From IMG/VR virus record IMGVR_UViG_3300022542_001157: a DNA stretch of 42,619 nucleotides; one strand, 5' to 3'. Below the pieces are notes generated by a model. It did no database searches. It was not told the DNA's origin and saw only the letters and a program-made list of their open reading frames with translations. Positions 3,139 to 42,619 of this stretch are shown piece after piece (within the stretch, counting starts at the first letter, position 1; each line of letters begins with the position of its first letter). A program made the translations under genes and the position numbers. Source of the DNA: a virus.

Positions 3139-3150
3139 TTCTAATCTCCT

Positions 3151-3345: not shown

Positions 3346-3380
3346 TTCTAATCTCCTTTAAAATTGGCCTATGCAAGTAC

Positions 3381-5933: not shown

Positions 5934-6006
5934 TTGCTTTCCTCCAACCAACTTTCCAATTTTGGAATCCAATGTCCTTTAATTCGTTTGACACGCATAA
6001 GGGTGA

Positions 6007-14630: not shown

Positions 14631-14939
14631 ATGGCTTTAAAAGGTTTTAAAGTTACACGACCACCAATCCCAAATATCATGTCTCCCTCGGGGAAGCTGA
14701 ATGCGGCAAAATCCGAAATTAAATCGCTGGAGAAAGAATTGTCAAATCTGAAAGAGGGCGGTTTGGGTCTTCCGGATGGAACAGTGGCGATTCAAGGATT
14801 CTTTCCACTTTTTGATTTGACAAAGAAAGAATTGGTCGAAGAAGGGAAAGGTGTTGGGCTCGATGCCCTTGACCCCAAAAGCCCCAAAGACCAATTGTTA
14901 AAAGACATTTTTGAAATCTTGTTCAAAGATCTTCTATGA
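14631..14939 (+). CDS. Hypothetical protein, 102 aa
   Basis: ORF with a TGGAG RBS. ATGA overlap with the next gene. Confidence 0.65.
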   Translation: MALKGFKVTRPPIPNIMSPSGKLNAAKSEIKSLEKELSNLKEGGLGLPDGTVAIQGFFPLFDLTKKELVEEGKGVGLDALDPKSPKDQLLKDIFEILFKDLL

Positions 14940-15886
14940 GTTCTGTAAAGATCTTTACCAATGAGGTTGCTGGAGGTTGGTCCCCCCATGATATTGAAGA
15001 AATGTTGGGCGGTTCTGAGGAGTGCGTAGTGCTTTTGGCAGAACAGATGGCCGCCAGTGGGCATGAAGTCAAAGTGTACCATACGCCGAAGCATGATGAA
15101 ATGGGGGCTTTTCGGAAGGGAGTTGAATACTCCCCAAGAGCGCAGTTTGTGCCGAATCCGGATGACGTCGTAATCACTTTTAAAGATTATACGCCTTGGG
15201 TTCGGGGTGTGAATGCCCGAATTAAGATTCACTGGTCATCGGATGTAGAAGGCGTGTGGGATACTTCGTTGGTAGACCATTTTGTTAATTTGACCGAATA
15301 CCACCAACGCCGCAATTTTTTTGTGCGGACCGACAAGCGGCGGGTCATCCCGCACGGAATAGATGTCGAACCAGGCGAAAAGACCGAGCATGGGACAATG
15401 CTTTATTGCAGTTCCCCCGACAGGGGCCTGATAGAGTTACTGCAGGACTGGAAAACTATCCGAAGTCATTTTCCAGAAATGCAATTAAAAGTGGCTTACG
15501 GATTTGATTTGTTCGACAGGGTTATGGGCACTAATGGTTTTGAATTTAAACGGGCAATTTTGAACTTGGCTAAACAACCCGGCATTTCTTTTCTGGGGAC
15601 TTTGAGCAAGGATGAATTGAACGAGCAGTACCGCAAAGCGGAATATTGGGTATTACCATTGCAACGCCCAGATTCTGAGTTGTTTTGTCTGAATGCGATA
15701 AAATCCAGAGTGTTGGGGTGTATTCCAATCGTCAACAAAGTTGGGGCACTTGAAAATACTGTGGGTGATTTTATCGATTATTCGGAATTTGTAGGGGGGA
15801 ACCCCGTTTTGAAAGAGTCTAATCGGCCAGTTCCGGCCATGGATTGGGCTCAAATCTATGAAAACTTTTGGAAAAAATTACTATGA
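14936..15886 (+). CDS. GT-B-fold glycosyltransferase (GT4-like)
   Basis: N-terminal GG-x-E...LAEQMAASGHEVKVY pattern. C-terminal E-x7-type region EYWVLPLQRPDSELFCLNAIKSRVLGCIPIV. Confidence 0.7.
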   Translation: MSSVKIFTNEVAGGWSPHDIEEMLGGSEECVVLLAEQMAASGHEVKVYHTPKHDEMGAFRKGVEYSPRAQFVPNPDDVVITFKDYTPWVRGVNARIKIHWSSDVEGVWDTSLVDHFVNLTEYHQRRNFFVRTDKRRVIPHGIDVEPGEKTEHGTMLYCSSPDRGLIELLQDWKTIRSHFPEMQLKVAYGFDLFDRVMGTNGFEFKRAILNLAKQPGISFLGTLSKDELNEQYRKAEYWVLPLQRPDSELFCLNAIKSRVLGCIPIVNKVGALENTVGDFIDYSEFVGGNPVLKESNRPVPAMDWAQIYENFWKKLL

Positions 15887-18774
15887 AAATTATCGTATAT
15901 GTCCCAGGCATGGCCTTTGATGGGAACACTTTGAAAGCAGGTAAAAGTCTCGGGGGCTCTGAGACTATGGGACTTATTGTGTCCCAAGAATTGGCAAAGC
16001 GTGGGCATCGTGTAATTTGTTTTTGCAACACAAACGGACCGTCGTTTACTGACAACGTGGAATATTTACCGATCGGCCCAGCAGATAATAACACCCCCTT
16101 TGGGGCCAATTTCGAACGATACGCGGCAGAGATCCCACATGATGTTTTACTGGCCCAAAGAGCGGCGGGGGTTTTCCATAAAAAGTTTAATTCCAAATTG
16201 AATTATTTTTGGACTCATGATCTTGCATTAAAACGCCACGCCGGGGCAATGGCAAGTATGCTTTGGAACACAGATCGAATTTTGGGGGTGTCAGAATGGC
16301 ACAAAAAACAAGTGTCCGAGATCTACGACTTGAACGATGGTTTCATTTCAGTTTTACGAAACGGCATAAATCTTGCAGATTTCAGTCCAGAGGCCGGTCG
16401 CTTGAAATTTAATTCAAAGACTTTGTTGTATACCTCCAGACCGGAACGGGGACTCGAAAATCTCGTGAAGCCCGGCGGAATCATGGAACAGTTGTATAAA
16501 CTGGACCCCGAAATCCAGTTGGTGGTGGCTGGGTACGACAATACCACCGAACAAATGGCCCAATTTTACAATTATCTGTGGGGAAGGTGTGAAGAACTCC
16601 CAAACGTAAAGAATTATGGCCCCCTTGGGAAAAAACAGCTGTACGAATTAATGGGGAAAGCGGCGTTGCATGTGTACCCCACCGAATTTGAGGAAACTAG
16701 TTGTATTACCATGATGGAAGAACAAGCCAGCGGCACCCCAGTGGTCATTACAAATGTTGGGGCACTCCCTGAAACTCTAGCCGGGGGTGGTATGTGGGAT
16801 GCCGATGTCGAGAATTTCGCTGGCGCAATTGAAGGGTTGTTGTCGAATTTCGAAACATGGTACAAAAGACATGAATTGGCCCTGAAAAAAGCCAAAAATT
16901 ATTGTATTGAAGCCGCAGTGGACGACCTTGAAGGGCTTATCCTAGACGATTTTGTAAGACTGTCTAGGAACGTTAACGCGGTGGCGGCTGGGTTGATCCG
17001 AAATTCGGACTTGGTTGCGGCAGAGAAGTTGACTGGGGTTCCTCCAGACGTCGATGCCCCTACCTTTTCTCAATCCACCAAAGAATCCGAGCGTTTTTAT
17101 GAAAACATTGCGGAATACAACATTGACATCGGGAACAAACATTCCCTGGGTAAATACGACAGAATCTTGTCAATGCCGAGGTTACAGCCTGTGATTGACC
17201 AGTTGGCCGACCTTCCAGACGGGGCCAAGGTGTTGGATTACGGTTGTTGTGTGGGGCATGTCACAACCGCCTTAGCTGACAGGTTTCCAAATCTGCAGTT
17301 TGTTGGAGTCGATATTTCGAAATTGCAAATCGACATCGGGAACAAATTTATTGACGCTAACGGATTGACCAACGTCAAATTGATGAACAGTCCAGATGTC
17401 AACCACCCGAAAATTGACAACGATTTTGATGCAGTTGTTGCTCTGGAAATCTTGGAACACATTCATGATTTTGGCGGTTTTCTGGCTGGGCTGTTGAAAC
17501 ACCTAAAATTGGGTGCGCCGGTTATCATATCCACTCCAGCGGGGCCTGTGGAAGCATTCCGGGGTGAAGAGGACCACCCACTCGAACATTTACACCACTT
17601 TGAGGAACAGGATATATTGGACATCATCGGGGACCAAGATGGGTTTAATGTTGTCTATATCAACGATTTTGATTCGAAGACAGGTGATAAACTCGGAAAT
17701 TTTGTGTGGTGGTGGAAACGAAGCCAGAAGAAACTTGGAAAAATTGACTATAACAAAAAACTGATTTTCCAAAACCCGATTCAAACGGTTTCCTGTTGTA
17801 TGGTTGTTTCCGGCAATACCGGGTCACTGAAAAGGACATTGGATTCTGTCTCTTTCGCCTCAGAATTTATTATCGGAGTTGACGGGGCCGAGGATTCCGA
17901 AGCGTTCCGAATTGCTAAACAATACGGGGCAGATGTGTTTTGTTTGACTGGAAGTCCACGAGAAATCGGATTTGATGAAGCCAGGAATGAAACTATTGAA
18001 AAGGCGGGGTGCGATTGGATTTTGTGGATTGATGACGATGAAGTGTTTCAGTGGCCAGAAAGGGTGTTGAAATATTTTAGAAACAACCAGTTTGACTCTT
18101 ACAGTATCGCGCAACACCATTTTAGCGCCGAACCTGCAGGGCTTTTAAAAACTGATTTGCCCGCCAGAATTTTTAGAAATCACAAAGGGATTAAATTTTA
18201 CGGCGTGGTCCATGAACACCCGGAAGTCGGAGTCAATGAGGGGCCGGGTAAAACTTTTGTGATCCCTGCCAATGAAGTGGCTATTTGTCATAATGGGTAT
18301 GATACCGAAATCACACGTCGGGAGCGCTTTCAACGAAATTTCCCCCTGATGGAACGGGAAATCAAAAAGCACCCAGATCGTTTGTTGTCAAAGTTTTTGT
18401 GGATTCGGGATTTGGCCCACTTGAACAAATTTGAATATGAACGGTTTGGAAGAATTACGCCAGAAATTAAGGCCAGGGCACAAGAAGCAATCAAAATTTG
18501 GCGGGGTTTGCTGGAGGATGCGCCAATTCGGATTGTTTCGGACTCCATACCATATGTTTCGGAGGCCGTGGATATCCTCACCGAAGGAGGCGGTTACCTG
18601 TTTAATTTCTGCTTGGATATGTCCTACCGGGGATTTGGGGATTTGGTGGACGGGAAAAGCAACGGAAACATCATCACGGGGAAATTGGAAACCAAAGAGG
18701 ACCTTCTTTTATTGATGAATAAATTCGTTTCAGAAAAAACAAAACCTTTTGAAGAAAACGCAAAGTATTTATAG
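15883..18774 (+). CDS. Three-domain enzyme: GT4-like glycosyltransferase, SAM-dependent methyltransferase, GT2-like glycosyltransferase
   Basis: GGSETMGL...KRGHRV and PTEFEETSCITMMEEQASGTPVV (GT-B). VLDYGCCVGH and VVALEILEHI (class I MTase motifs). CCMVVSGNTGSLKRTLDSV...WILWIDDDEV (GT-A DxD). Start ATG 15883 overlaps the upstream stop (ATGA). Confidence 0.8.
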   Translation: MKIIVYVPGMAFDGNTLKAGKSLGGSETMGLIVSQELAKRGHRVICFCNTNGPSFTDNVEYLPIGPADNNTPFGANFERYAAEIPHDVLLAQRAAGVFHKKFNSKLNYFWTHDLALKRHAGAMASMLWNTDRILGVSEWHKKQVSEIYDLNDGFISVLRNGINLADFSPEAGRLKFNSKTLLYTSRPERGLENLVKPGGIMEQLYKLDPEIQLVVAGYDNTTEQMAQFYNYLWGRCEELPNVKNYGPLGKKQLYELMGKAALHVYPTEFEETSCITMMEEQASGTPVVITNVGALPETLAGGGMWDADVENFAGAIEGLLSNFETWYKRHELALKKAKNYCIEAAVDDLEGLILDDFVRLSRNVNAVAAGLIRNSDLVAAEKLTGVPPDVDAPTFSQSTKESERFYENIAEYNIDIGNKHSLGKYDRILSMPRLQPVIDQLADLPDGAKVLDYGCCVGHVTTALADRFPNLQFVGVDISKLQIDIGNKFIDANGLTNVKLMNSPDVNHPKIDNDFDAVVALEILEHIHDFGGFLAGLLKHLKLGAPVIISTPAGPVEAFRGEEDHPLEHLHHFEEQDILDIIGDQDGFNVVYINDFDSKTGDKLGNFVWWWKRSQKKLGKIDYNKKLIFQNPIQTVSCCMVVSGNTGSLKRTLDSVSFASEFIIGVDGAEDSEAFRIAKQYGADVFCLTGSPREIGFDEARNETIEKAGCDWILWIDDDEVFQWPERVLKYFRNNQFDSYSIAQHHFSAEPAGLLKTDLPARIFRNHKGIKFYGVVHEHPEVGVNEGPGKTFVIPANEVAICHNGYDTEITRRERFQRNFPLMEREIKKHPDRLLSKFLWIRDLAHLNKFEYERFGRITPEIKARAQEAIKIWRGLLEDAPIRIVSDSIPYVSEAVDILTEGGGYLFNFCLDMSYRGFGDLVDGKSNGNIITGKLETKEDLLLLMNKFVSEKTKPFEENAKYL
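16362..16377 (+). promoter_or_regulatory. Weaker sigma54-type motif, sense, inside the glycosyltransferase gene
   Basis: CGGCATAAATCTTGCA. Confidence 0.2.
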
Positions 18775-31546: not shown

Positions 31547-31590
31547 TTTATCTCCTTATCTCTATGTTACAACTAACGGGACCGGTTGTC

Positions 31591-31681
31591 CCGTTTTCTG
31601 ATTTCAGTTTACCACATCCTGTCAATTCTGTCAATATATCGAATTCACGAAATTTATTCAGAATTGACAAAGATCAATTTC
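31591..31681 (-). repeat. Early promoter/operator cassette, copy 1 (about 92 percent identical to 32282..32372)
   Basis: Direct alignment of the two 91-nt segments (about 7 mismatches). Confidence 0.9.
31606..31634 (-). promoter_or_regulatory. Consensus sigma70 early promoter PE1 (leftward)
   Basis: The minus strand reads TTGACA, 17 nt, TGgTAAACT. Flanked by three ATTGACA heptamers (two direct, one inverted at 31659..31669). Confidence 0.75.
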
Positions 31682-32237: not shown

Positions 32238-32281
32238 TTTTTATCTCCTTATCTCTGGTTTGTTTCATTTGGGGCTTCTCC

Positions 32282-32372
32282 CCGTTTTCTGATCCCAATT
32301 TACCACACCCTGTCAATTCTGTCAATATATCGAATCAACGAAATTTATTCAGAATTGACAAAGATCAATTTC
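32282..32372 (-). repeat. Early promoter/operator cassette, copy 2
   Basis: See copy 1. Confidence 0.9.
32297..32325 (-). promoter_or_regulatory. Consensus sigma70 early promoter PE2 (leftward)
   Basis: The minus strand reads TTGACA, 17 nt, TGgTAAATT. Confidence 0.75.
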
Positions 32373-32390
32373 CGTTAACGGAAACCCTTG

Positions 32391-32406: not shown

Positions 32407-32883
32407 TTAGAATCCAGACAGAGCATTGAAAAATTCCCTATTGTTTTTCCGGAAATGGTCCATTGACGCGTACCGCAATCTGCACAACCTAAACCACTCC
32501 TCTTTGGGCGATTTTCCCAATGCAAACATTTTCATTACAGCCGGACTAATCAACAGAATGTCCTCATCAATTTGCACCAAAAACCACGATTGCCCTTGGA
32601 ATTTTTGTACACCTAACGCGAAACGGACTTGTCCCCCAACCCGCTCGGGGTGCGGGACTTTTACCGGGGACTCTGGATTCTTGGGCCATTTCGGAAGTGC
32701 TTTAACCTCGATCCAACCTGAAATGCCGCCCGGCATCCCCGTAGAATCTTGGGGGCCGACCGTATACGCCCAATCCGAAACAAAATTTTCCGTTCTGGTT
32801 TCGATCTCGGTTAATTTCCAAAGCCCGCGCAAGGCAATTTTGATATTGTTTTTGAAGGTTTGCTCCCTTGTTATTCGGCTCAT
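32407..32883 (-). CDS. Putative PD-(D/E)xK-type nuclease (VRR-NUC/resolvase-like)
   Basis: 158 aa with a GWIEVK-type E-x-K motif. ATGA-coupled to datZ. Confidence 0.45.
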   Translation of the reverse strand: MSRITREQTFKNNIKIALRGLWKLTEIETRTENFVSDWAYTVGPQDSTGMPGGISGWIEVKALPKWPKNPESPVKVPHPERVGGQVRFALGVQKFQGQSWFLVQIDEDILLISPAVMKMFALGKSPKEEWFRLCRLRYASMDHFRKNNREFFNALSGF

Positions 32884-33491
32884 ACAAAGTTTTGGTCGCT
32901 AAAACTCATGTTCCCAGTCATTGAACCCACAGTGGTTTTAAAAATCTCGCCTTGGTAGGAGTATTCCGGGAAATACTCCATAAACGCGGCCACGGCAATC
33001 TTTAGATCATCATGGATTTCTTTTAAAATAATACTGGAGTGCTTTTTGTCGTTATTGTGGCGAGTTAAAAAGGAAATGGCCTCCATCATGTCTGCAATTT
33101 TTACTATGTCCCGCACTTTATACCTGACTTCCGGCGGGATCTGCAGGAACTTGTCATGGACAGTCTCAGATTCAAAATTTTTCATAAAATTGTTGGATCT
33201 GGCGTGTTTGGCCATTTTCTTTTTTATTGGAGTCGGGATGTCCCCAATAAAAAGTTCTGAAAGGTCGTGAAAGATGGCCCACTCCACCGCGTGGTGTTTT
33301 ATTACCGAAAACCCGTCAAATGTCAAACCTTTGGAACCAAAACCTATTTTAAGGCGATCCAACATATTGATCACGATATAGGCAACATTAAATGAATGCT
33401 CCGCAACACTTTGTCTTTCCGTACGGACGATTTGCCACCTTGCCACATTTGAGAGACGATGAATATCTTGTATTTCAATTTTTGGTAACAT
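32880..33491 (-). CDS. datZ: HD-domain phosphohydrolase, DatZ-like dATP triphosphohydrolase (by context)
   Basis: H (AEHSFNV)...HD (IFHDLSE)...D (FIGDIP) HD-superfamily pattern. Coupled downstream of mazZ/purZ. Confidence 0.65.
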   Translation of the reverse strand: MLPKIEIQDIHRLSNVARWQIVRTERQSVAEHSFNVAYIVINMLDRLKIGFGSKGLTFDGFSVIKHHAVEWAIFHDLSELFIGDIPTPIKKKMAKHARSNNFMKNFESETVHDKFLQIPPEVRYKVRDIVKIADMMEAISFLTRHNNDKKHSSIILKEIHDDLKIAVAAFMEYFPEYSYQGEIFKTTVGSMTGNMSFSDQNFV

Positions 33492-34005
33492 GGTGGATCA
33501 ATCCTGTGTTAGGGTCCCTTTCCCAGGACCGTTTTTTGTTGATGGCATGTTTTTTGGCCATGGCTTCAAAAATGTCAATTCCTTTCAAGTGGCAATAATC
33601 GAAGAACAAAATCCCAATGTCCGCCGCCTCTAGCGGCAAATCAATAGGTTCTGCGTGTAAAAGCTCTGGGATTTCTTCCATCACCATTTTGGTCAGAGCA
33701 TTTTCAGCGGTCCTATCTTTCCCGATCGCGTCGTCGGCCCATGAAATGATGTCATTGACCAACTCCCGAAAATCCGGGGGTTTTTCCGAAATCGGAGTAT
33801 ACGCGTTACATTCAGTCGGATCATGAAACGGTTCGCAATTAAGTTGGTATTCATCATTCCACGACGGACACTCACGATATCCGCAATTCTTAAACGGGCT
33901 CCAATCCATACAATCTTGTAAACAATGAAAAGTCCCACAGTTGTTTGGGACTTTCGAATTATAGGCCCCACACCCTTTTTTGTGACATTTTTGCGCGTTC
34001 ATCAA
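33475..34005 (-). CDS. mazZ: MazG-like nucleotide pyrophosphohydrolase, MazZ-like (by context), with a Cys/His-rich N-terminal extension
   Basis: C-terminal about 100 aa carry MVMEEIPELL and EAADIGILFFD (EExxE/ExxD MazG motifs). The N-terminal about 70 aa hold about 9 Cys and 3 His. ATGA overlap with purZ. Confidence 0.65.
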   Translation of the reverse strand: MMNAQKCHKKGCGAYNSKVPNNCGTFHCLQDCMDWSPFKNCGYRECPSWNDEYQLNCEPFHDPTECNAYTPISEKPPDFRELVNDIISWADDAIGKDRTAENALTKMVMEEIPELLHAEPIDLPLEAADIGILFFDYCHLKGIDIFEAMAKKHAINKKRSWERDPNTGLIHHVTKN

Positions 34006-35045
34006 ATCTCCACCACGGCGGTTTGGTTTGGCCCCAAACCAAGGAAAGCCAATTTTCCACCTTGTTCATCCGCAATTCTGCTCACAGTTTCAATCATAGC
34101 GGTCCGCTCATTGATGTTAGGCAAATAGTTTACGAAATTTAGGAACACCTCGTCCACACCAGACATTTGGATGGCCTCGGTAATTTGTTGCTCGGAGAAA
34201 GTAAAAATCCGACGGGGCAATTTGGTTACGGTGGTCAATTCCGGTTTGATCCCGATTTGTGCCCACTCAATTTCGTGTTGGTCTTCATAACATGGTCCAG
34301 AATATCCAATTTGCGTTCCGTTTTCGTCATGCCGATTCGCCACCCGGATTGGGAAAGTTCGCGCTGAACCCACCACTTTGGCCAACATTTTGATAGGGAC
34401 CACGGTGTCCGACAGAATTTGTGCTGTTGTGCATTCACGAGAAGTCACATAAGGATAAAGGCCACTGTTGATCCCCAATGAATAACCCTGTGCGCCTTCG
34501 ATTTGAATTTTCTCGGCCTGGTTTAACATGTCCATGTATTGGGCGTGTGTCACCACCGAAAAATAACCAGAGGCCCCACCTTTTGGTAACCAATCGCGAA
34601 TAATCGTTTTTTTGTCCGGGTTGCGGCGGATTTTGTCAATCAAAGCCGCTCCGCAACCTTTTTTAGTGGAACCAATTTTAGTCATTGGACCGGCTTCAAT
34701 GTCAATATGCTCCTGTTGGATCACACAGGCGTTTTCGTGAACAAACACGGGAGGCACTTTTCCTAAAATGTCGCGGTTCTGGTCGATTTCTCGCATTAAA
34801 TTATCGACATTCAGTTGACTTCCCGGCCCGATTAAAGCCACTTCGAAATTAGGGCTTACAATGCCATTGGCCAGCATGGTGTGGATAAATTTTCTTCCAG
34901 TTTCATCAATATAGGTGTGTCCGGCGTTGGCCGACCAAGCCGTAACCAATGTATCAGGTTTATCGCGCTTGGCTAAATACCCCGCAATCAAACCCTTTCC
35001 AGTGCTTCCAAACTGCAAATCGCAGATCAAAGTAGCTTTCTCCAT
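34002..35045 (-). CDS. purZ: PurZ-like short adenylosuccinate-synthetase homologue (N6-succino-2-amino-2'-deoxyadenylate synthase)
   Basis: 347 aa versus about 430 for PurA. DLQFGSTGKG aligns with the PurA GDEGKGK P-loop with Asp to Ser. NAGHT, IGSTKKGCG, EGAQGYSLGINSGLYPYVTS are conserved. Adjacent to MazG and HD genes. Confidence 0.8.
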   Translation of the reverse strand: MEKATLICDLQFGSTGKGLIAGYLAKRDKPDTLVTAWSANAGHTYIDETGRKFIHTMLANGIVSPNFEVALIGPGSQLNVDNLMREIDQNRDILGKVPPVFVHENACVIQQEHIDIEAGPMTKIGSTKKGCGAALIDKIRRNPDKKTIIRDWLPKGGASGYFSVVTHAQYMDMLNQAEKIQIEGAQGYSLGINSGLYPYVTSRECTTAQILSDTVVPIKMLAKVVGSARTFPIRVANRHDENGTQIGYSGPCYEDQHEIEWAQIGIKPELTTVTKLPRRIFTFSEQQITEAIQMSGVDEVFLNFVNYLPNINERTAMIETVSRIADEQGGKLAFLGLGPNQTAVVEI

Positions 35046-35062
35046 TTCATTCCTTTTGAAAG

Positions 35063-35078
35063 CCGCCCGAAGGCGGCA
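35063..35078 (-). terminator. GC hairpin between the DUF2303-like gene and purZ (attenuator or processing site)
   Basis: GCCGCC-TTCG-GGCGGC followed by TTTCAAAAGG on the minus strand. Only three U residues follow. Confidence 0.4.
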
Positions 35079-35085
35079 GGTTTAA

Positions 35086-35961
35086 TTACAAATCGCCCTT
35101 AAGAACCTCAATACCGACCCCTTCGAACACTTTTTCGGGATCTTTTTCGGAACCAACATTTCCACCGTTGATTCTTCTGCAGATCATGTCAAACGCTTTT
35201 TCCTTCAAAACTTCAGCTTGATCAATAATGAAGAAAAATTTAGCCTGGCCATTTCCGAGTCTGTGGAGCATCCGAATCGTAATTTGGAAAATATCCCCAC
35301 CCTTGTAAATTGGGATGGCGAGAATGAATTGGCGGGGGATTGAAAGGGTGCCTTTCCCGACTTCGTCGTTTTCGTAGTGCAGAACCCGACGACCCGACAC
35401 CCGGTCCACCTTGGAGGTAAATTTTTCCTGGAAGGTGGCTTCCAAATTTTCGATAATCGAAGAAAGTTCCAGGGCAGAAATGTTTTCAATTTCTTTTCCA
35501 TCCCCGTCTGGGATGTTGCCCACCATGAAATCTGTCCGGTTGTTTTCCAAGAATTCCGCAAACCCGGACTGGTCCATGCGATTTCCCTCGGCACTAGACC
35601 AAATTCGCCATTGTTTAGAGAACCCAATATCCAGGTGGGTTGTGAAATCTCCCCATCCAGGCTCCTCGCCGTGGGCGTTAAAAATGGCCTTTGCCTTAGC
35701 CGTTTTTTCATCGGCGACCACTAAAGTTGCTGGGGTTTTGTGTAGATTCACATAATGGCAGAAACTCTTGGTTTCGGTAAAATTTCGGTCCCCAGACTTT
35801 CTGTTGGGGCAGGCGGCGTTGTTGCGGATCTCCACCACCTTTTGCCCCTGGGGGATAGCAAAATGGGTTAGTTCCCCGTCGTCATACAACTCCTGGAACT
35901 CGGCACTTTCTTTCCCGAGTTCGACCGCCGATTCGATAATATTCTGTTCTGATTGGCTCAA
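35086..35961 (-). CDS. DUF2303 (YfdQ-like) family protein
   Basis: Pattern KSF-x-HYVN-x-H...GWGDF...SKQW-x-W...MDQSGFAEFLENN-x-DF recalls YfdQ-type prophage proteins. Confidence 0.55.
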   Translation of the reverse strand: MSQSEQNIIESAVELGKESAEFQELYDDGELTHFAIPQGQKVVEIRNNAACPNRKSGDRNFTETKSFCHYVNLHKTPATLVVADEKTAKAKAIFNAHGEEPGWGDFTTHLDIGFSKQWRIWSSAEGNRMDQSGFAEFLENNRTDFMVGNIPDGDGKEIENISALELSSIIENLEATFQEKFTSKVDRVSGRRVLHYENDEVGKGTLSIPRQFILAIPIYKGGDIFQITIRMLHRLGNGQAKFFFIIDQAEVLKEKAFDMICRRINGGNVGSEKDPEKVFEGVGIEVLKGDL

Positions 35962-35995
35962 TTTTTATCCTTTTCGATTAAAAGTTAAAGAAAAT

Positions 35996-36337
35996 TTAAA
36001 CTCGGTTCACAACTTTTTTGTGATCTTCAATCCGGGTCACATTCCCCGGGTCCACTTTTTCTATCGTGGGGTCTTCATCATGCAACCGATTCTGATCATC
36101 GGTAAACATTTGGACAGTTTCCAAAGCTTCCCGTGGGACCTGTGGTCGGACTTGCGACCCCACTTGGATTTTGTTCTGCCCAGTCCGTTTGTACTGTAAT
36201 TCAATGACCAGTTTTCCTTGTCTCCCGGTCCTCATCACAGCCTCAATGACTTTTTCCTGCTCGACTGTCATTTCATCCAAAAGATTTCCAACCCCATAAC
36301 TTTTGAGGTTGCTTAAAAATTCATTTTCTCCACTCAT
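35996..36337 (-). CDS. Hypothetical protein, 113 aa
   Basis: ORF in an operon context. Confidence 0.65.
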   Translation of the reverse strand: MSGENEFLSNLKSYGVGNLLDEMTVEQEKVIEAVMRTGRQGKLVIELQYKRTGQNKIQVGSQVRPQVPREALETVQMFTDDQNRLHDEDPTIEKVDPGNVTRIEDHKKVVNRV

Positions 36338-36349
36338 TCCATTTCTCCT

Positions 36350-36595
36350 TTAAAATGGGATATCATCAAGTTCGTCGTCCCCAACGGGGGCGGACGCGGG
36401 TTTCGGTTGGGGTGGCACGTCCTTTGCAGTTAGGGCAATCGACATGAACTTTCCCGTCCTCCCGTCCTTCAACCACGCTGACATCCAATATTCGACCCCT
36501 TCAACATTTAGAGTCCCAGTATACAGCGGGTGTGTTTCTTTCGTTTTCCGATCGTTTTTGAATAATGCCCCGGAATTTGTGTTATCGTACGCCAT
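36350..36595 (-). CDS. Small SSB-like protein, 81 aa, with a bacterial-SSB-type acidic tail (DDELDDIPF)
   Basis: ATG 36595 behind AAGGAGAGAGAATAAA. C-terminal DDIPF tip. The ORF-track 5' extension to 36820 would overlap the polymerase gene by 56 nt. Confidence 0.55.
   Translation of the reverse strand: MAYDNTNSGALFKNDRKTKETHPLYTGTLNVEGVEYWMSAWLKDGRTGKFMSIALTAKDVPPQPKPASAPVGDDELDDIPF
36413..36428 (+). promoter_or_regulatory. sigma54-type motif, antisense inside the SSB-like gene
   Basis: TGGCACGTCCTTTGCA, exact consensus. Confidence 0.4.
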
Positions 36596-36764
36596 TTTAT
36601 TCTCTCTCCTTTTGGGGTTGGTTTTCCTTGTACCGTTTTGCGCATTCTTTATGTAAAATTCGTGGAAGATCGTCTCCAGACCATTTGGGTATGGGAAGAA
36701 TTGTGTGTTGGTTTCCCCATAACAAACCACCGCAGGACCAACAAAAAATTTACTCGTGGTTTTT

Positions 36765-38609
36765 TCATGTTGCTTTCTCCGCTTTGGTGGCTTCCCACCA
36801 ATTTTTAGACGGTTTCCCAAAATCGATCCGTATTGGAACCTTGAGTAAATCTTTCTTGTCTTCTATCAGTCGCCTGATTTCTTTCAAGTGCTTGATGGAC
36901 TCCGCGTTATCCGGGAGCGATAAACTATATTCATCGTGGATATTTAAAAGAAGTCGGGCGGCGGGATATTCGGAAGCTAAATATTCACAAGTGAGCGCGA
37001 TATTGAGTTTGTTCAGATCCGCCGATGAACCTTGGTAAATCAGGCCAGACGCCTTTCTCGCCCCATACCCTTTGGGGAACCTGATATGGCGGCCCAAAAT
37101 GGTTCTGATATACCCCCGGCGCTCGGCCACATTTTGGGCCTTGCGGGCCATTTCTCGGATTCCTGGAACCATTTTGTGGTAGCTCTCCACCATAGCTAAG
37201 GCCTCAGGACCAGCCTTTTTGAAAACAATCGTTTCTCCAAATTTAGTGGTAAATTTGTCTTCTGTCCATGGGAGTCCCACCGCGTCTGCCATAGCCCCAG
37301 ACCCCATATTGAAAACCATTCCAAGATTCAGTTGCTTGGCGTTTGGCCCACCATTAGCCGGTTTATTCCTTGGAAGCCCGGTCAAATCAGCAACCTTGGT
37401 GTGGAAGTCCAAATTGGGGTTGCTGCGGTATTCTTCAATGATCTTAGGGTTGTTGACATAGTGTGCAAACACCCTATACTCATGTTGATCCAAATCCCCG
37501 TATGCCCAAGCTTGCCCTTCATCTGGGATAAAAATCGGGCGGACCAAAGCGGCGATTTCTTTGTCGCGGGCAGGGATTTGTTGGAGTGCCGGTTCTACAT
37601 AGGACAATCGCCCGGTGCCGGTACCACCCTCATCACCTTTGGTCTGGTTGATCGTGGGAAAAACTTTTCCTTGATATTCGTGCCCCAGGATATGTCCCTT
37701 AATAAAGGTGTCTCGGGTTTTCATGTATTTCCGTACTTTCAAGATCACGGCGGCGGCTGGGTGTTTCATTTTCTCCAGACTTTCTTTGGCCAGGGACGGT
37801 GCCCCTTTCTTGGTCGTCCCAATGACCGTGCCATCGATAGTTTCCCACAACCCGTCTTTCCTCTTCTTGGGCTCGAACAATTTTTTAATGCTTCCGGACG
37901 GATTCGGATTGACCGGGAATCCAGCGATATCATCCAAATATTTCCGAAGCAAATCAACCTCTTTGGTCAGGGCTTCTATTTGAATTTCAGCGGCGGCGGG
38001 GTCCACACGAATTCCTCGCCTTTCCATTTCCACGATGTGTGGAAACAGTCGCCGTTCAAAATTGTATATTTGCCCCAACCCCTGTTTGGTTATTTCTTTC
38101 TCTTGCCATTTCCATAGCTCCATGGCCACATTGGTGTCCTGTTTGGCATACCGGGCCATCAATTCAACTGGTGCTTTGTGAAAATTTTTCACTTGCGCGT
38201 TTCGAGTGGCCATGCCACCAAAAATTTTGGCCAACTCCACGTAAATGTCTGAATCTTTCCGGATGCCCAAATATTTTTTGGCCAGGGCATCAAGATTGTA
38301 TTCGTGCAAATGCTCATTGATCAACGCCCCCCGAATCATGGTACAATCGCAAATTGCGGGGTCCAAGGCCACCCCTGCTCCACGAAGCATATGGATGTCA
38401 AATTTGATATTGTGGTTCACCACACGATTGATATTGGTTTTAAGCTGGTCCCGCAACCAATCCAGGGATTTTGGGGTTTCGCGAATATCATAATAAGCTG
38501 ATCCTTGGGAATCCGAAACCGAGAAACCAAACAATTTATCCCGGTTCCAATCCACGCCGGTGGATTCGATATCAATGGCACAAAATTTGTTGATGTTTCT
38601 AAATTCCAT
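36765..38609 (-). CDS. dpoZ: Family A DNA polymerase with 3'-5' exonuclease domain (DpoZ-type by genomic context)
   Basis: Exo I AIDIESTG, Exo II NHNIKFDIHML, Exo III YAKQDT. Pol motif A DLDQHEYRV, motif B K-x3-NLGMVFNMG, motif C NIHDEY. ATG 38609 (or TTG 38612). Confidence 0.9.
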   Translation of the reverse strand: MEFRNINKFCAIDIESTGVDWNRDKLFGFSVSDSQGSAYYDIRETPKSLDWLRDQLKTNINRVVNHNIKFDIHMLRGAGVALDPAICDCTMIRGALINEHLHEYNLDALAKKYLGIRKDSDIYVELAKIFGGMATRNAQVKNFHKAPVELMARYAKQDTNVAMELWKWQEKEITKQGLGQIYNFERRLFPHIVEMERRGIRVDPAAAEIQIEALTKEVDLLRKYLDDIAGFPVNPNPSGSIKKLFEPKKRKDGLWETIDGTVIGTTKKGAPSLAKESLEKMKHPAAAVILKVRKYMKTRDTFIKGHILGHEYQGKVFPTINQTKGDEGGTGTGRLSYVEPALQQIPARDKEIAALVRPIFIPDEGQAWAYGDLDQHEYRVFAHYVNNPKIIEEYRSNPNLDFHTKVADLTGLPRNKPANGGPNAKQLNLGMVFNMGSGAMADAVGLPWTEDKFTTKFGETIVFKKAGPEALAMVESYHKMVPGIREMARKAQNVAERRGYIRTILGRHIRFPKGYGARKASGLIYQGSSADLNKLNIALTCEYLASEYPAARLLLNIHDEYSLSLPDNAESIKHLKEIRRLIEDKKDLLKVPIRIDFGKPSKNWWEATKAEKAT

Positions 38610-40065
38610 CAAAAACCCCCACCAATACTGGGTTGTCCACTGTCACAATATCCAGTTGGTGTTTGGCTCGGGTCACACCAACATAAAACACCCGGTATTC
38701 AGAATCGGGGTCCTTGTGGAAATTTTCACTAGTTTTCTGCCCCATGCCATCCAAAAGGATTATTCGGTCATCTTCATCACCCTTAAAGCCATGGATCGTG
38801 GAAAGTTGGATTGTAGGAATGCCACGAATGCTCCCATACTTGGCCTCAATTCTGGACAAATAATTTAAAATTCTGGTGCTTCCAGTAAACGCTTTCCCCC
38901 AATGGTCATATATGTCAAAATCCCCATTCTTAAGCGCCCGGAAAGCACCGGGGTGCATGAACCTTTTCATTTTATTGATTTCCGGATCGGTTAATCTAAA
39001 ATTTCCGAACATTTTGAAATCATCAAAGGCTGTGACCCAATTTTTAATCGCTTGGGCCATGGGAGATTCATTGACTCCAGGTTTCCCGTTCAGAACCCGG
39101 TACGGGACCGCTAGCGCAATCAAATGGTCTTCGATGTCCCCACGCAATGAATGGTTGCGATACAGGATTGAACATTTTTCGCCATGTTCAATTTCTAGTT
39201 GCCCAATGTCCCCAAACATGCGGACGGTGCCTTCCTCGGGCCGGGGCTTGTACTCCTTGTCAATCCGTACTTTCACCCTTCGAATAACAGACTCAGCGGC
39301 TTTGTGTACCTTCGCGGGTACACGGTAGCTCTGCCCGAGGATTTCCTGTTCTGCTTGGTGTAATTCTTTCCATTTGGAAATTCCTTGTGGGTCAGCCCCA
39401 CCCCAAGAGAAAATTGCTTGGTCATCGTCACCACTGACGATGACAGTACGGATTTCAGTGGCCCAATAGTTGATCAGTTTCCACTGAAGAGGGGAAAGGT
39501 CCTGGGCTTCGTCCACAAAAAGGATATCCAAATCTGGAACCCCAGCCCCTACAGCCATTTCCAACATGTCATTGAAGTCAATGACTCCATAACCTTTTTT
39601 GAAGCTCTCCAGGCTGTCAATAAAATACTTGAAGACGGAATAACTTCCCGGCCTATGGGATTCCATATAAACCATTTTGGCATCTTCGGCCAGTATAGCT
39701 TTGGAATACTGGTAAATCGCTAACAATTCATCGCCCAATTCAATCTGGTCATTGTCCTCAACGTTCCTGTTGGTGATTTCAATTCCGGTTTTTTTGGACA
39801 AATCGCGGTAAAATTCGTAATCCGCGACCTGAGACCGGTTGATCCCAGCTTGTTTAAAGGCTATCGAATGGATGGTGCCGACAAATTCCGACCCAATACC
39901 GGCTCTTTTAGCCAGAACCTTGGCGGCCACTTTGGTGAATGTGACCAACCCAATTCTCTTGGGGTCGGTCCCCGATGATACATACTCTTGCACCAAAGAG
40001 ATAATTTTCGTGGTCTTTCCGGTTCCAGGAGGGCCTACAATAGTCCTTCTAAAAGGATTGGTCAC
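38599..40065 (-). CDS. UvrD/PcrA-like superfamily 1 helicase
   Basis: GPPGTGKTT, LFVDEAQDL, SGDDDQAIFSWGGA, TIHGFKGDEDD, YVGVTRAK. GTG start behind AGAGGGGG. Confidence 0.9.
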   Translation of the reverse strand: MTNPFRRTIVGPPGTGKTTKIISLVQEYVSSGTDPKRIGLVTFTKVAAKVLAKRAGIGSEFVGTIHSIAFKQAGINRSQVADYEFYRDLSKKTGIEITNRNVEDNDQIELGDELLAIYQYSKAILAEDAKMVYMESHRPGSYSVFKYFIDSLESFKKGYGVIDFNDMLEMAVGAGVPDLDILFVDEAQDLSPLQWKLINYWATEIRTVIVSGDDDQAIFSWGGADPQGISKWKELHQAEQEILGQSYRVPAKVHKAAESVIRRVKVRIDKEYKPRPEEGTVRMFGDIGQLEIEHGEKCSILYRNHSLRGDIEDHLIALAVPYRVLNGKPGVNESPMAQAIKNWVTAFDDFKMFGNFRLTDPEINKMKRFMHPGAFRALKNGDFDIYDHWGKAFTGSTRILNYLSRIEAKYGSIRGIPTIQLSTIHGFKGDEDDRIILLDGMGQKTSENFHKDPDSEYRVFYVGVTRAKHQLDIVTVDNPVLVGVFDGI

Positions 40066-42276: not shown

Positions 42277-42619
42277 TTATTTAAGTAAATTATTTGAAAT
42301 TGCCATGACAATTTCTTTTTCTTTTTTCCAAAATCTTAAAGCCCTTTTCCCGTCCATGGCAAGAATTTCTTTGTTTGTAAAATCCTGCCACTCTTTTGCG
42401 TGATGGACCTCACAACCGATTTTAATAAAACTATCAAAAATAATGCAATGGTAGTCACACCCGGTATACTGTGCTATTTTATTAGACCTGATTTTAAAAC
42501 CTTCCAAGTACGCGCCTTCCAAGTACGCGCCTCCCAAGTTCGCGCCTCTCAAGTTCGCGCCTTCCAAGTTCGCGCCTCCCAAGTTCGCGCCTTCCAAGTA
42601 CGCGCCTCCCAAGTTCGCG
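42277..42619 (-). CDS. Pentapeptide-repeat protein, C-terminal segment (continues from 214..1 across the junction)
   Basis: ...[31 protein letters not shown] followed by a 70-aa non-repeat Cys/His-containing domain. TAA at 42279..42277. Confidence 0.8.
42501..42619. repeat. 15-nt periodic coding repeat, right-end part of the same array as 1..144
   Basis: Eight units CTYYCAAGTWCGCGC. The last 38 nt equal the first 38 nt of the window. Confidence 0.9.

What the first reader, a model, noticed from the sequence alone, without database searches (positions are those of the whole stretch)
32880..38612. Complete 2-aminoadenine (Z-base) genome module: purZ-mazZ-datZ operon plus a family A polymerase
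Seen in sequence:
- A 347-aa truncated adenylosuccinate-synthetase homologue at 34002..35045. Its P-loop reads DLQFGSTGKG where PurA has GDEGKGK. NAGHT and EGAQG...YPYVTS are retained.
- It is ATGA-coupled to a MazG-type pyrophosphohydrolase (33475..34005), then to an HD phosphohydrolase (32880..33491).
- An exo-proficient PolA (36765..38609), a PrimPol and helicases lie in the same transcription direction.

Established knowledge: in cyanophage S-2L, Vibrio phage PhiVC8 and Acinetobacter phage SH-Ab 15497 this gene set substitutes adenine with 2-aminoadenine. MazZ makes dGMP, PurZ plus host PurB and kinases make dZTP, DatZ destroys dATP, and DpoZ polymerises.

Inference: this phage packages ZTGC DNA, so every a in this sequence may be Z in the virion. 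That would blunt restriction and many DNA-targeting defences.
Basis: partly seen in the sequence, partly recalled or inferred. Interest (0 to 1): 0.9.

Follow-up and report, generated by a model that had tools for sequence, protein, structure and literature searches.

The report
Z-base (2-aminoadenine) genome module, uncultured phage
This uncultured tailed phage carries the full, intact gene set (purZ, mazZ, datZ and a DpoZ polymerase) that known phages use to replace adenine with 2-aminoadenine in their DNA, so it is a new example of an already well-described system, not a new kind of system.

Summary

**Gene identities, all on the minus strand**
- 34002..35045 encodes a true PurZ. Its best solved-structure matches are S-2L and PhiVC8 PurZ (E about 1e-80). 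It sits in the PurZ clade in 200/200 bootstraps. It has the Ser14 P-loop, the full dGMP pocket and the ATP-type FLNFxNY motif.
- 33475..34002 encodes a MazZ-1/DUF550 pyrophosphohydrolase with all metal and guanine ligands.
- 32880..33491 encodes a DatZ-family HD hydrolase.
- 36765..38609 encodes a PhiVC8-like DpoZ (E 4.5e-159 to PDB 7pbk). It keeps the signature residues L/F/G, insertions 1-3 and an intact exonuclease site.

**Context**
- The whole replication module is collinear with Acinetobacter phage SH-Ab 15497, an experimentally proven Z-phage, at 27-57% amino-acid identity.
- The structural module is unrelated to that of SH-Ab 15497.
- There is no nucleotide-level match to any isolate. 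The nearest PurZ anywhere is 63% identical.

**Caveats**
- Virion Z content is inferred, not shown.
- The published DatZ "specificity" residues are also present in E. coli YfbR, so dATPase activity rests on profile, synteny and homology.

**Side observations**
- MazZ has an orphan Cys-rich N-terminal extension.
- The phage also carries a C5-methyltransferase and strongly avoids GC-only palindromes.

Verdict: new member of a known kind, modest interest.

The parts
34002..35045 (-). purZ: N6-succino-2-amino-2'-deoxyadenylate synthase (347 aa)
   Evidence: - PHROG 1211, E 1.5e-87.
- PDB: 7odx E 6.6e-81 and 6fko E 4.6e-80, against PurZ0 7vf6 at 2e-22 and PurA at about 1e-16.
- dGMP pocket conserved: F12 G13 S14 N40 A41 G125 S126 T127 R141 Q186 Y199 T201 R234 V235 T271 R278. 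ATP pocket conserved: F304 Y307.
- Falls in the PurZ clade in 200/200 bootstraps.
33475..34002 (-). mazZ (MazZ-1/DUF550 type (d)GTP pyrophosphohydrolase, 175 aa). The catalytic domain is aa 75-173.
   Evidence: - Pfam PF04447, E 2.7e-5, above its cut-off.
- PHROG 801, E 8.8e-9.
- PDB 7ody, E 3.6e-12.
- S-2L residues E35, E38, E50, D53, I56, D60 and R83 correspond to E110, E113, E125, D128, I131, D135 and R158, all conserved.
33781..34002 (-). Orphan Cys-rich N-terminal extension of MazZ (aa 1-74, 9 Cys, three CX4C pairs)
   Evidence: - No Pfam hit.
- No homologue outside this phage in the 5.8-billion-protein search.
- Relatives carry different N-terminal fusions.
- No in-frame ATG between residue 1 and the first MazZ helix (residue 78 onward), so the extension probably has to be translated; alternative GTG/TTG starts were not formally excluded.
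- The AlphaFold model is uninformative, pLDDT about 30.
32880..33491 (-). datZ-family HD phosphohydrolase (203 aa), a putative dATP triphosphohydrolase
   Evidence: - PHROG 7076 'dATP triphosphohydrolase', E 5.6e-28, against 1.5e-10 for the dNMP phosphatase family.
- Pfam YfbR-like, E 6.4e-16.
- PDB 6zpa DatZ, E 2.8e-6, nearly tied with YfbR at 5.3e-6.
- R18 W19 I21 Q27 A30 H32 H75 D76 G83 P88 K90 K131 D134 are all conserved, but only Q27 and A30 distinguish it from YfbR.
32407..32883 (-). 158-aa gene ATGA-coupled to datZ, last gene of the operon, function unknown
   Evidence: - PHROG 2165, E 7.9e-16.
- A gene of similar size follows datZ in SH-Ab 15497 (gp42) and, one short ORF further on, in Vibrio phage J2 (gp23). 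Direct blastp similarity to them is marginal.
- Followed by a terminator-like hairpin at 32386..32367.
35062..35077 (.). GC-rich hairpin (GCCGCC-CGAA-GGCGGC) between the DUF2303 gene and purZ
   Evidence: Read directly and flagged by the terminator scan. On the coding (minus) strand the T-tail is weak, so it may act as an attenuator or an RNA-stability element. This is inference.
35086..35961 (-). DUF2303 / YfdQ-like gene, inserted between SSB and purZ relative to SH-Ab 15497
   Evidence: - Pfam PF10065, E 9.1e-38.
- blastp to E. coli YfdQ, E 1e-4.
- Absent from the SH-Ab 15497 module.
35996..36337 (-). 113-aa gene, YfdP-like according to a precomputed Pfam hit
   Evidence: PF27127:YfdP is listed for the identical product on contig L004. 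PHROG 204, E 3.5e-10. My own Pfam scan and blastp to YfdP found nothing.
36350..36595 (-). Small SSB-like protein (81 aa as called on the public contig)
   Evidence: PHROG 18154/7364 single-strand DNA binding protein, E 4e-18. 44% identical to the SH-Ab 15497 SSB region.
36765..38609 (-). dpoZ: PhiVC8-like family A DNA polymerase with 3'-5' exonuclease (614 aa)
   Evidence: - PDB 7pbk, E 4.5e-159, against Klenow at 1e-39.
- About 57-59% identical to SH-Ab 15497 DpoZ and 43-44% to the PhiVC8-like J2 enzyme.
- Exonuclease D14/E16/D72, R137, TGR motif and motif C HD all present.
- Signature residues L430/F434/G523 and insertions 1-3 present.
38599..40065 (-). UvrD/PcrA-like SF1 helicase
   Evidence: Pfam UvrD-helicase, E 2.2e-23. 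42.5% identical to SH-Ab 15497 gp36 and collinear with it.
4377..5972 (-).
   Evidence: PHROG 21866 primase, E 3.7e-154. Pfam AEP-TOTE, E 3.6e-12. 54% identical to the SH-Ab 15497 homologue.
586..2352 (-). SNF2-family helicase of the same replication module
   Evidence: Pfam SNF2-rel_dom, E 3.8e-30, plus Helicase_C. 38% identical to SH-Ab 15497 gp29.
3436..4362 (-). C5-cytosine DNA methyltransferase, a possible complement to Z at GC-only sites
   Evidence: Pfam PF00145, E 4.4e-50. PDB hits include M.HaeIII, M.HhaI and DNMT3. No tblastn match in SH-Ab 15497. Its target sequence could not be determined.

Best explanation
The region is a functional Z-cluster (purZ-mazZ-datZ) plus a Z-selective replicase (dpoZ). 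It is embedded in a PhiVC8/SH-Ab 15497-type replication module of an uncultured siphovirus-like phage.

**Proposed mechanism**
1. MazZ hydrolyses dGTP to dGMP. It may also hydrolyse dATP, as the SH-Ab 15497 DUF550 enzyme does.
2. PurZ condenses dGMP with aspartate, using ATP or dATP, to give N6-succino-2-amino-dAMP.
3. Host PurB removes fumarate to give dZMP. Host kinases then make dZTP. No phage gene for these steps is present.
4. The HD protein DatZ removes dATP from the pool.
5. DpoZ preferentially polymerises dZTP opposite T.

The packaged genome would then be ZTGC DNA, partly shielded from restriction enzymes.

**Shown here:** gene identities, family membership at the residue level, operon structure and synteny.

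**Inferred:** all enzyme activities, the dependence on host PurB and kinases, and the actual base composition of virion DNA.
For: - Best PDB matches are PurZ, MazZ, DatZ and DpoZ.
- PHROG families 1211, 801 and 7076 match.
- The PurZ pocket is intact, including Ser14 in place of PurA Asp13 and Val235 (S-2L V241, the 2'-OH steric block).
- The PurZ clade is recovered in 200/200 bootstraps, separate from PurZ0 and PurA. The nucleotide-donor motif is the ATP-type FLNFVNY, not the PurA TKLD type.
- MazZ-1 metal and guanine ligands are conserved.
- DpoZ signature residues and insertions are conserved.
- The genes overlap tightly in one operon.
- The module is collinear with SH-Ab 15497 over 11 genes at 27-57% identity. 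That phage is reported as adenine-free, with a Z-selective DpoZ and a dATPase DatZ.
- The same gene order is seen on an independent assembly and in metagenomic relatives.
- The three-gene cluster is reported to be sufficient for Z incorporation in E. coli.
Against: - There are no chemical data on the DNA.
- The DatZ match to PDB is weak (2.8e-6) and nearly tied with the dNMP nucleotidase YfbR. The published specificity residues W20, I22, P79, K81 and K116 are also present in YfbR.
- My NJ tree did not separate prophage YfdR from the phage HD proteins.
- MazZ carries an uncharacterised Cys-rich N-terminal domain with an unknown effect on activity.
- DpoZ lacks the PhiVC8 exonuclease insertion 117-127, although SH-Ab 15497 DpoZ lacks it too.
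- The palindrome-usage footprint is compatible with Z-DNA but not diagnostic of it.
Confidence: 0.85

Rival explanations
1. The cluster is present, but adenine exclusion works differently. The HD protein would be a YfbR/YfdR-type 5'-deoxynucleotidase acting on dAMP, not a dATP triphosphohydrolase. dATP would then be removed by MazZ/DUF550 (a dATP and dGTP pyrophosphohydrolase, as in SH-Ab 15497), followed by the HD nucleotidase, with DpoZ selectivity doing the rest. The end result would still be Z-DNA.
For: - PDB scores for DatZ and YfbR are nearly tied.
- All base-contacting and phosphate-contacting DatZ residues also occur in YfbR.
- The gene sits after yfdP-like and yfdQ-like genes, as yfdR does in prophage CPS-53.
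- SH-Ab 15497 DUF550 is reported to hydrolyse both dATP and dGTP.
Against: - The PHROG DatZ family scores 18 orders of magnitude better than the dNMP phosphatase families.
- The DatZ-specific residues Q29 and A32 are present.
- blastp bit scores to the three Z-phage DatZ proteins (48-74) exceed the score to YfdR (30).
- The SH-Ab 15497 homologue is reported to be a dATPase.
Confidence: 0.1
2. The module is only partly functional, or adenine is only partly replaced. This could happen because the unusual MazZ fusion or the divergent DatZ is inactive, so the virion would carry mixed A/Z DNA.
For: - DatZ is only 26-31% identical to characterised DatZ proteins.
- The MazZ N-terminal domain is an orphan.
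- Heterologous four-gene systems give partial substitution in E. coli.
Against: - All catalytic residues are intact in all four enzymes.
- No frameshifts or stop codons are present.
- Tight translational coupling is preserved.
- Identical proteins were recovered on two independent assemblies.
- Natural phages with this gene set are reported as adenine-free.
Confidence: 0.05
3. The 347-aa protein is an ordinary auxiliary adenylosuccinate synthetase (PurA or PurZ0-like) that boosts (d)AMP supply, and the genome is normal ATGC DNA.
For: Pfam only reports the generic Adenylsucc_synt family.
Against: - It lacks the PurA catalytic Asp13 (Ser14 in its place) and the GTP-type TKLD motif.
- It clusters with PurZ in 200/200 bootstraps.
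- It scores 275 bits to PurZ structures against 48-83 bits to PurA and PurZ0.
- It is flanked by MazZ, DatZ and DpoZ.
Confidence: 0.01

Closest known systems
Acinetobacter phage SH-Ab 15497 and relatives (Barton, DMU1 and others): Z-genome siphoviruses
   Same: - The replication and Z module is collinear: AEP primase, SNF2 helicase, gp33/gp34-like genes, UvrD helicase, DpoZ, SSB, PurZ, MazZ/DUF550, DatZ and a small downstream gene.
- Amino-acid identities: PurZ 55-57%, DpoZ 57-59%, primase 54%, MazZ domain 54%, DatZ 27-29%.
   Different: - No nucleotide-level similarity.
- The structural module is essentially unrelated. The major capsid protein is under 29% identical to that of any isolate.
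- The window inserts YfdP-like plus DUF2303 genes before purZ, a C5-methyltransferase plus a 261-aa gene, and a pentapeptide-repeat gene.
- MazZ has a Cys-rich N-terminus instead of the DUF5664 fusion and long C-terminal tail of SH-Ab gp40.
Vibrio phage PhiVC8 group (represented here by phage J2; PDB 6fko PurZ, 7pbk DpoZ)
   Same: PurZ is 44-46% identical and DpoZ 43-44% identical, with the same signature residues and insertions 1-3. DatZ is 31% identical.
   Different: - The PhiVC8 group is listed in the literature among podovirus-family Z-phages and uses the MazZ-2 variant. The window has MazZ-1/DUF550 and a tape-measure protein, so it is siphovirus-like.
- The window DpoZ lacks the exonuclease insertion 117-127.
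Cyanophage S-2L Z-cluster (PDB 7odx, 7ody, 6zpa)
   Same: Same purZ-mazZ-datZ order with overlapping genes and a MazZ-1 type enzyme. All published pocket residues are conserved.
   Different: S-2L has no DpoZ and relies on a non-selective PrimPol plus DatZ, whereas the window has DpoZ. Only the three Z-cluster genes are shared.
PurZ0 / Wayne-like actinophage Z systems (PDB 7vf6)
   Same: Same overall strategy: a PurA-derived enzyme plus a Z-selective family A polymerase.
   Different: - The window protein is not PurZ0. Its P-loop is GSTGKG, not GSEAKG, and its donor motif is FLNFxNY, not LTMLD.
- It falls in a separate clade (199-200/200 bootstraps), and scores E 2e-22 to 7vf6 against 1e-80 to PurZ.
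- There is no dUTPase-like DutZ or NDT-like DmtZ gene in the window.
E. coli cryptic prophage CPS-53 yfdP-yfdQ-yfdR cassette
   Same: Gene order is YfdP-like, DUF2303/YfdQ-like, then a YfbR/YfdR-type HD hydrolase.
   Different: CPS-53 has no purZ or mazZ. In the window these two genes sit between the DUF2303 gene and the HD gene. The similarities are weak (E about 1e-4), and YfdP similarity was not reproduced in my own scans.

Membership tests
PurZ (2-aminoadenylosuccinate synthetase) | Ser replaces the catalytic Asp13 of PurA in the P-loop (G-S-T-G-K-G). Mutating this Ser back to Asp is reported to abolish substrate selectivity. | tested here: met
   Ser14 lies in DLQFGSTGKG. E. coli PurA has GDEGKG and PurZ0 has GSEAKG.
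PurZ (2-aminoadenylosuccinate synthetase) | dGMP pocket residues, including the Val that clashes with a ribose 2'-OH (S-2L numbering: Y21 G22 S23 N49 A50 G130 S131 T132 R146 Q190 Y203 T205 R240 V241 T273 R280) | tested here: met
   All are conserved or conservatively replaced (Y21 to F12, as in PhiVC8). C204 is V200, as in SH-Ab 15497.
PurZ (2-aminoadenylosuccinate synthetase) | ATP/dATP donor pocket (PhiVC8 F295, Y298) instead of the GTP-specific motif kept by PurA and PurZ0 | tested here: met
   F304 and Y307 lie in FLNFVNY. PurA has CLTKLDV and PurZ0 has LTMLDQ.
PurZ (2-aminoadenylosuccinate synthetase) | Phylogenetic placement inside the PurZ clade, outside PurZ0 and PurA | tested here: met
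   NJ tree of 18 sequences and 331 columns. PurZ including the window is monophyletic in 200/200 bootstraps, and PurZ0 in 199/200. PDB bit scores are 275 (PurZ), 83 (PurZ0) and 64 or less (bacterial PurA).
PurZ (2-aminoadenylosuccinate synthetase) | Catalyses dGMP + Asp + ATP to dSMP | not testable with these tools
   Needs an enzyme assay.
MazZ-1 / DUF550 (d)GTP pyrophosphohydrolase | Metal ligands E35, E38, E50, D53; transition-state R83; guanine 2-amino contacts I56 and D60 (S-2L numbering) | tested here: met
   E110, E113, E125, D128, R158, I131 and D135 are present. Pfam PF04447 scores above its cut-off. PDB 7ody, E 3.6e-12.
MazZ-1 / DUF550 (d)GTP pyrophosphohydrolase | Located between purZ and datZ | tested here: met
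   It overlaps the purZ stop codon by 1 nt and the datZ start by 17 nt.
DatZ (dATP triphosphohydrolase, HD superfamily) | HD metal ligands plus R19, W20, I22, P79, K81, K116 (S-2L numbering) | tested here: inconclusive
   All are present (R18 W19 I21 P88 K90 K131; H32 H75 D76 D134). The same residues, with L for I, are present in E. coli YfbR, a dNMP nucleotidase, so they do not discriminate.
DatZ (dATP triphosphohydrolase, HD superfamily) | [quoted passage not shown] | tested here: met
   Q27, A30 and G83 are present, where YfbR has E and S at the first two positions. PHROG 7076 scores E 5.6e-28 against 1.5e-10 for the dNMP phosphatase PHROG. My NJ tree could not exclude YfdR from the group.
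DatZ (dATP triphosphohydrolase, HD superfamily) | Hydrolyses dATP, and no other dNTP, to dA plus triphosphate | not testable with these tools
   Needs an enzyme assay.
DpoZ, PhiVC8-like subfamily | Signature substitutions L455, F459 (helix O) and G548, and insertions 1-3 in the palm and fingers | tested here: met
   L430, F434 and G523 are present. Insertion 1 (GDEGG), insertion 2 (KPANGGP) and insertion 3 (PWTEDKFTTKFGETIVFKK) are present.
DpoZ, PhiVC8-like subfamily | Active 3'-5' exonuclease site (D26, E28, D85), extended E1/E2 helices with R161 and M165 (which varies to I or A), and the HD dyad of motif C | tested here: met
   D14, E16, D72 and R137 are present. V141 stands at the M165 position, a conservative change not among the listed variants. 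The HD dyad is at 559-560.
DpoZ, PhiVC8-like subfamily | 10- to 100-fold kinetic preference for dZTP over dATP | not testable with these tools
   Reported for the PhiVC8 and SH-Ab 15497 enzymes. The window enzyme is 57-59% identical to the latter.
ZTGC-DNA phage | Virion DNA contains 2-aminoadenine in place of adenine | not testable with these tools
   Only indirect evidence is available. A/T-containing palindromes are not avoided (O/E 0.91) while GC-only ones are (0.16). Host-matched non-Z phages also show about 0.9 for A/T-containing palindromes, and lambda shows a similar ratio, so this is not diagnostic.

The most novel reading that the evidence does not exclude
This phage may represent an undescribed lineage in which the PhiVC8/SH-Ab-type Z replication module has been joined to an unrelated siphovirus structural module, and in which Z is one layer of a three-layer anti-restriction strategy.
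- Z would shield A/T-containing sites.
- A phage C5-cytosine methyltransferase and extreme avoidance of GC-only palindromes (9 observed against 55 expected) would cover the GC-only sites that Z cannot protect.
- The orphan Cys-rich domain fused to MazZ might add a new regulatory or metal-binding input to dGMP supply.
Probability: 0.3. Interest if true: 0.4.

Novelty: new member of a known kind. Interest (0 to 1): 0.3.

Why it matters
If the inference holds, every A in this 42.6-kb sequence is 2-aminoadenine in the virion.
- This matters for anyone trying to clone, digest, amplify or nanopore-sequence this phage.
- It adds a divergent set of PurZ, MazZ, DatZ and DpoZ enzymes (27-63% identical to known ones) to the toolbox for making Z-DNA.
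- It does not change the understanding of the pathway, which has been established since 2021 and is known to be widespread.
- The practical caution from this work is that the published DatZ 'specificity residues' do not separate DatZ from YfbR-type nucleotidases, so residue-based annotation of DatZ in metagenomes should rely on other positions, such as Q29 and A32.

Tried and rejected
1. **Megablast of 8 kb against 50,697 phage records.** No match, so the phage is not a known isolate.
2. **Palindrome footprint as intrinsic evidence for Z-DNA.** It looked striking at first: GC-only 6-mers had O/E 0.16 against 0.91 for A/T-containing ones. Two known Z-phages showed the same pattern while T7 and HK97 avoided both classes. 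After adding lambda, a non-Z Acinetobacter phage and a non-Z Vibrio phage, it was no longer discriminating. A/T-containing O/E was about 0.9 in both host-matched controls, and the lambda ratio was 0.28. I keep it only as 'compatible'.
3. **NJ tree of HD proteins to separate DatZ from YfbR and YfdR.** YfdR fell inside the phage group on a long branch, and phage monophyly was found in 2/200 bootstraps. Inconclusive.
4. **The Cys-rich MazZ N-terminus.**
   - Pfam at E up to 10: nothing meaningful.
   - Homologue search: only the protein itself, plus one hit covering the MazZ domain.
   - AlphaFold single sequence: mean pLDDT 39.9, uninformative. I did not run a fold search on it.
5. **blastp of the 113-aa protein against E. 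coli YfdP.** No hit, although a precomputed Pfam YfdP hit exists.
6. **Target site of the C5-methyltransferase.** PDB matches cover only the conserved catalytic half, so specificity cannot be inferred.
7. **Search for phage-encoded PurB, nucleotide kinases, NDT/DmtZ, dUTPase or ThyX in the window.** None found.
8. **tRNA scan.** None found.
9. **PurA or PurZ0 identity for the 347-aa protein.** Rejected.

Full report
**Observation**

The window's minus strand between 32.4 and 40.1 kb carries a tight gene series, listed here in order of transcription:
- UvrD-like helicase (38599..40065)
- family A polymerase (36765..38609)
- small SSB-like gene (36350..36595)
- 113-aa gene (35996..36337)
- DUF2303 gene (35086..35961)
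- 347-aa adenylosuccinate-synthetase homologue (34002..35045)
- MazG/DUF550-type gene (33475..34002)
- HD hydrolase (32880..33491)
- 158-aa gene (32407..32883)

Reading the junctions corrects a detail:
- purZ and mazZ share one base (TGATG).
- mazZ and datZ overlap by 17 nt.
- The only ATGA overlap is between datZ and the 158-aa gene.

The 'PrimPol' is an AEP primase at 4377..5972. A second (SNF2) helicase lies at 586..2352. Both belong to the same module because the genome is circularly permuted in the window. A pentapeptide-repeat gene with 15-nt periodicity runs to both window ends. Gene order also continues across the ends in register with SH-Ab 15497.

**Identity of the four key proteins**

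Against all PDB sequences, each protein's best match is the corresponding Z-genome enzyme.

| Protein | Best match | Comparison |
|---|---|---|
| PurZ | 7odx (S-2L) 6.6e-81; 6fko (PhiVC8) 4.6e-80 | PurZ0 2.2e-22; bacterial PurA about 1e-16 |
| MazZ | 7ody, 3.6e-12, residues 75-173 only | |
| DatZ | 6zpa, 2.8e-6 | barely ahead of YfbR at 5.3e-6 |
| DpoZ | 7pbk, 4.5e-159 | Klenow 1e-39 |

PHROGs gives the PurZ family at 1.5e-87, the dATP/dGTP pyrophosphohydrolase family at 8.8e-9 and the dATP triphosphohydrolase family at 5.6e-28.

**Residue-level membership**

I took defining residues from the primary papers and mapped them through alignments with S-2L, the PhiVC8-like phage J2 and SH-Ab 15497.

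- **PurZ.** It keeps the whole dGMP pocket, including Ser14 (Asp13 in PurA), Thr271 and Val235 (the residue that blocks a 2'-OH). It also keeps the adenine-stacking residues F304 and Y307.
- **PurZ phylogeny.** A tree with four PurZ0 proteins, E. coli PurA and seven metagenomic homologues places it in PurZ in 200/200 bootstraps. The alignment shows three clean diagnostic motifs:

| Motif | PurZ | PurZ0 | PurA |
|---|---|---|---|
| P-loop | GSTGKG | GSEAKG | GDEGKG |
| Donor-base motif | FLNFxNY | LTMLDQ | LTKLDV |

- **MazZ.** It keeps E110, E113, E125, D128, I131, D135 and R158. These correspond to the S-2L residues stated to be conserved across MazZ-1.
- **DpoZ.** It keeps the exonuclease triad, R161, the TGR pre-motif A, the motif C HD dyad, the signature residues L455/F459/G548 and insertions 1-3. 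Like SH-Ab 15497 DpoZ, it lacks the exonuclease insertion 117-127.

**A caveat on DatZ**

All published DatZ residues are present in the window protein. When I added E. coli YfbR and YfdR to the alignment, YfbR turned out to have R, W, L, P, K, K and all metal ligands at the same positions. Only Q29 and A32 differ, and the window protein has the DatZ state at both. A small NJ tree did not separate YfdR from the phage proteins.

The DatZ call therefore rests on four things:
- the profile score;
- the Q/A positions;
- higher blastp scores to the three Z-phage DatZ proteins than to YfdR;
- synteny, and the reported dATPase activity of the SH-Ab 15497 homologue.

A YfbR-like dAMP nucleotidase role remains a live minor alternative. 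It would not change the end result.

**Context and relatives**

- There is no nucleotide-level match in 50,697 phage records.
- By tblastn, 206 phage records carry a PurZ or PurZ0 homologue. The best are SH-Ab 15497-like Acinetobacter phages at about 55% identity.
- In the 5.8-billion-protein collection, the exact protein occurs on a 42,693-bp JGI/Logan contig and on a 10-kb Logan contig with identical gene order. The nearest other protein is 63% identical. 3,909 proteins scored E ≤1e-5 (this set includes PurA-type enzymes as well), and the 119 best-scoring ones after the query itself are 53-63% identical, mostly from metagenomes.
- Eleven replication genes are collinear with SH-Ab 15497 at 27-57% identity. 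The structural genes are essentially unrelated. The capsid protein is under 29% identical to that of any isolate.
- Tape measure, major head, portal and terminase genes indicate a siphovirus-like virion.
- Metagenomic relatives L018 and L019 show the same core order with variable accessories: an intein-like insertion in the helicase, a ThyX gene, and separate or fused DUF5664.

**Mechanism**

The pathway follows the literature:
1. MazZ supplies dGMP from dGTP.
2. PurZ makes dSMP using ATP or dATP.
3. Host PurB and kinases complete dZTP. No phage PurB, kinase, NDT or dUTPase was found.
4. DatZ removes dATP.
5. DpoZ prefers dZTP.

All enzymatic steps are inferred for this phage.

**Attempt at intrinsic evidence for Z**

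- GC-only 6-bp palindromes are strongly depleted: 9 observed against 55.3 expected, Poisson P = 1.6e-14.
- GC-only non-palindromes are at 1.03 and A/T-containing palindromes at 0.91.
- Z does not protect CCGG from HpaII, so this is what selection on a Z-genome would produce. SH-Ab 15497 and J2 show the same pattern.
- However, host-matched non-Z Acinetobacter and Vibrio phages also have A/T-palindrome O/E of about 0.9, and lambda has a similar ratio.
- The signal shows real restriction pressure at GC-only sites, but it is not diagnostic of Z.
- A C5-cytosine methyltransferase at 3436..4362, with no tblastn match in SH-Ab 15497, fits a complementary-protection idea. That idea is untested.

**Unusual details**

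- MazZ has a 74-residue N-terminal extension with nine cysteines and no detectable homologue. The literature notes that MazZ-1 often acquires N-terminal fusions, usually DUF5664, so this is a new variant of a known tendency.
- The genes before purZ resemble yfdP and yfdQ of E. coli prophage CPS-53, where the next gene is the HD nucleotidase yfdR. This hints that purZ-mazZ may have been inserted upstream of a pre-existing HD gene.

**Verdict**

- The system is a new, divergent, uncultured member of the well-described PurZ/DpoZ class of Z-genome phages.
- It is not a new variant of the mechanism, and the interest is modest.

Noticed in passing
window 33781..34002 (-): The first 74 residues of MazZ form a Cys-rich extension (9 Cys, three CX4C pairs) with no Pfam match and no homologue outside this phage. 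Close relatives carry unrelated N-terminal extensions or DUF5664 domains instead.
   Followed up: partly
window 32880..36337 (-) compared with L012 3605..5521 (E. coli CPS-53): The gene order YfdP-like, DUF2303/YfdQ-like, [purZ, mazZ], HD hydrolase mirrors yfdP-yfdQ-yfdR of prophage CPS-53. This suggests purZ-mazZ may have been inserted upstream of a pre-existing YfdR-type HD gene. The similarities are weak (E about 1e-4).
   Followed up: partly
whole window; C5-methyltransferase at 3436..4362 (-): All eight GC-only 6-bp palindromes are depleted (9 observed, 55 expected), while GC-only non-palindromes and A/T-containing palindromes are near expectation. GGCGCC and GCCGGC are absent, as is GGATCC. 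The phage also encodes a C5-cytosine methyltransferase with no tblastn match in SH-Ab 15497. The pattern is compatible with Z leaving only GC-only sites exposed, but controls show it is not diagnostic.
   Followed up: yes
window 31590..31681 and 32281..32372: A 92-nt direct repeat, 93% identical, sits in two intergenic regions just downstream of the Z operon. Each copy carries a minus-strand sigma-70-like promoter (TTGACA, 17 nt, TAAAC/TT with an extended-10 TG). It looks like a duplicated promoter region for the following small genes.
   Followed up: partly
window 14936..18774 (+): Between the major capsid gene and the tail genes lie a GT4/GT1 glycosyltransferase (316 aa) and a 968-aa protein with GT4, SAM-methyltransferase and GT2 domains. 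This is an unusual cargo for a structural module and might glycosylate virion proteins.
   Followed up: no
window 7463..9009 (+): The large terminase appears split into two overlapping ORFs. The first is the ATPase part (7463..8212, PHROG TerL) and the second is the nuclease part (8176..9009, Pfam Terminase_6C). This could be a frameshift, an assembly error or a genuinely split gene.
   Followed up: no
window 9..203 and 42440..42619; gene 42277..42612 (-): Repeats with 15-nt periodicity at both ends of the window belong to a pentapeptide-repeat gene that seems to run across the window ends. Together with gene order continuing across the ends, this indicates a circularly permuted and probably complete genome (the public contig is 42,693 bp).
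   Followed up: partly
window 3120..3157, 3327..3364, 3428..3465, 36319..36356: A conserved translation-initiation context (reverse complement ATTTTAAAGGAGATTAGAAATG) recurs at four sites, two of which coincide with the starts of annotated minus-strand genes (3138 and 36337).
   Followed up: no
window 32407..32883 (-): The 158-aa gene ATGA-coupled to datZ belongs to PHROG 2165 (labelled 'DNA helicase', which is probably a misnomer). Small genes occupy comparable positions downstream of datZ in SH-Ab 15497 (immediately) and in Vibrio phage J2 (after one short intervening ORF). The sequence GWIEVK looks like a PD-(D/E)xK nuclease motif, but that is my reading only and was not tested.
   Followed up: partly
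L018 3325..5272: In the closest long metagenomic relative, the UvrD-like helicase is called as two genes, with a faint intein-splicing Pfam hit. This suggests an intein or a split helicase.
   Followed up: no
alignment of DatZ proteins with E. coli YfbR: The residues published as conferring DatZ specificity (W20, I/L22, P79, K81, K116) are also present in the dNMP nucleotidase YfbR. Only Q29 and A32 differ in this sample, so residue-based DatZ annotation in metagenomes may be less specific than assumed.
   Followed up: partly
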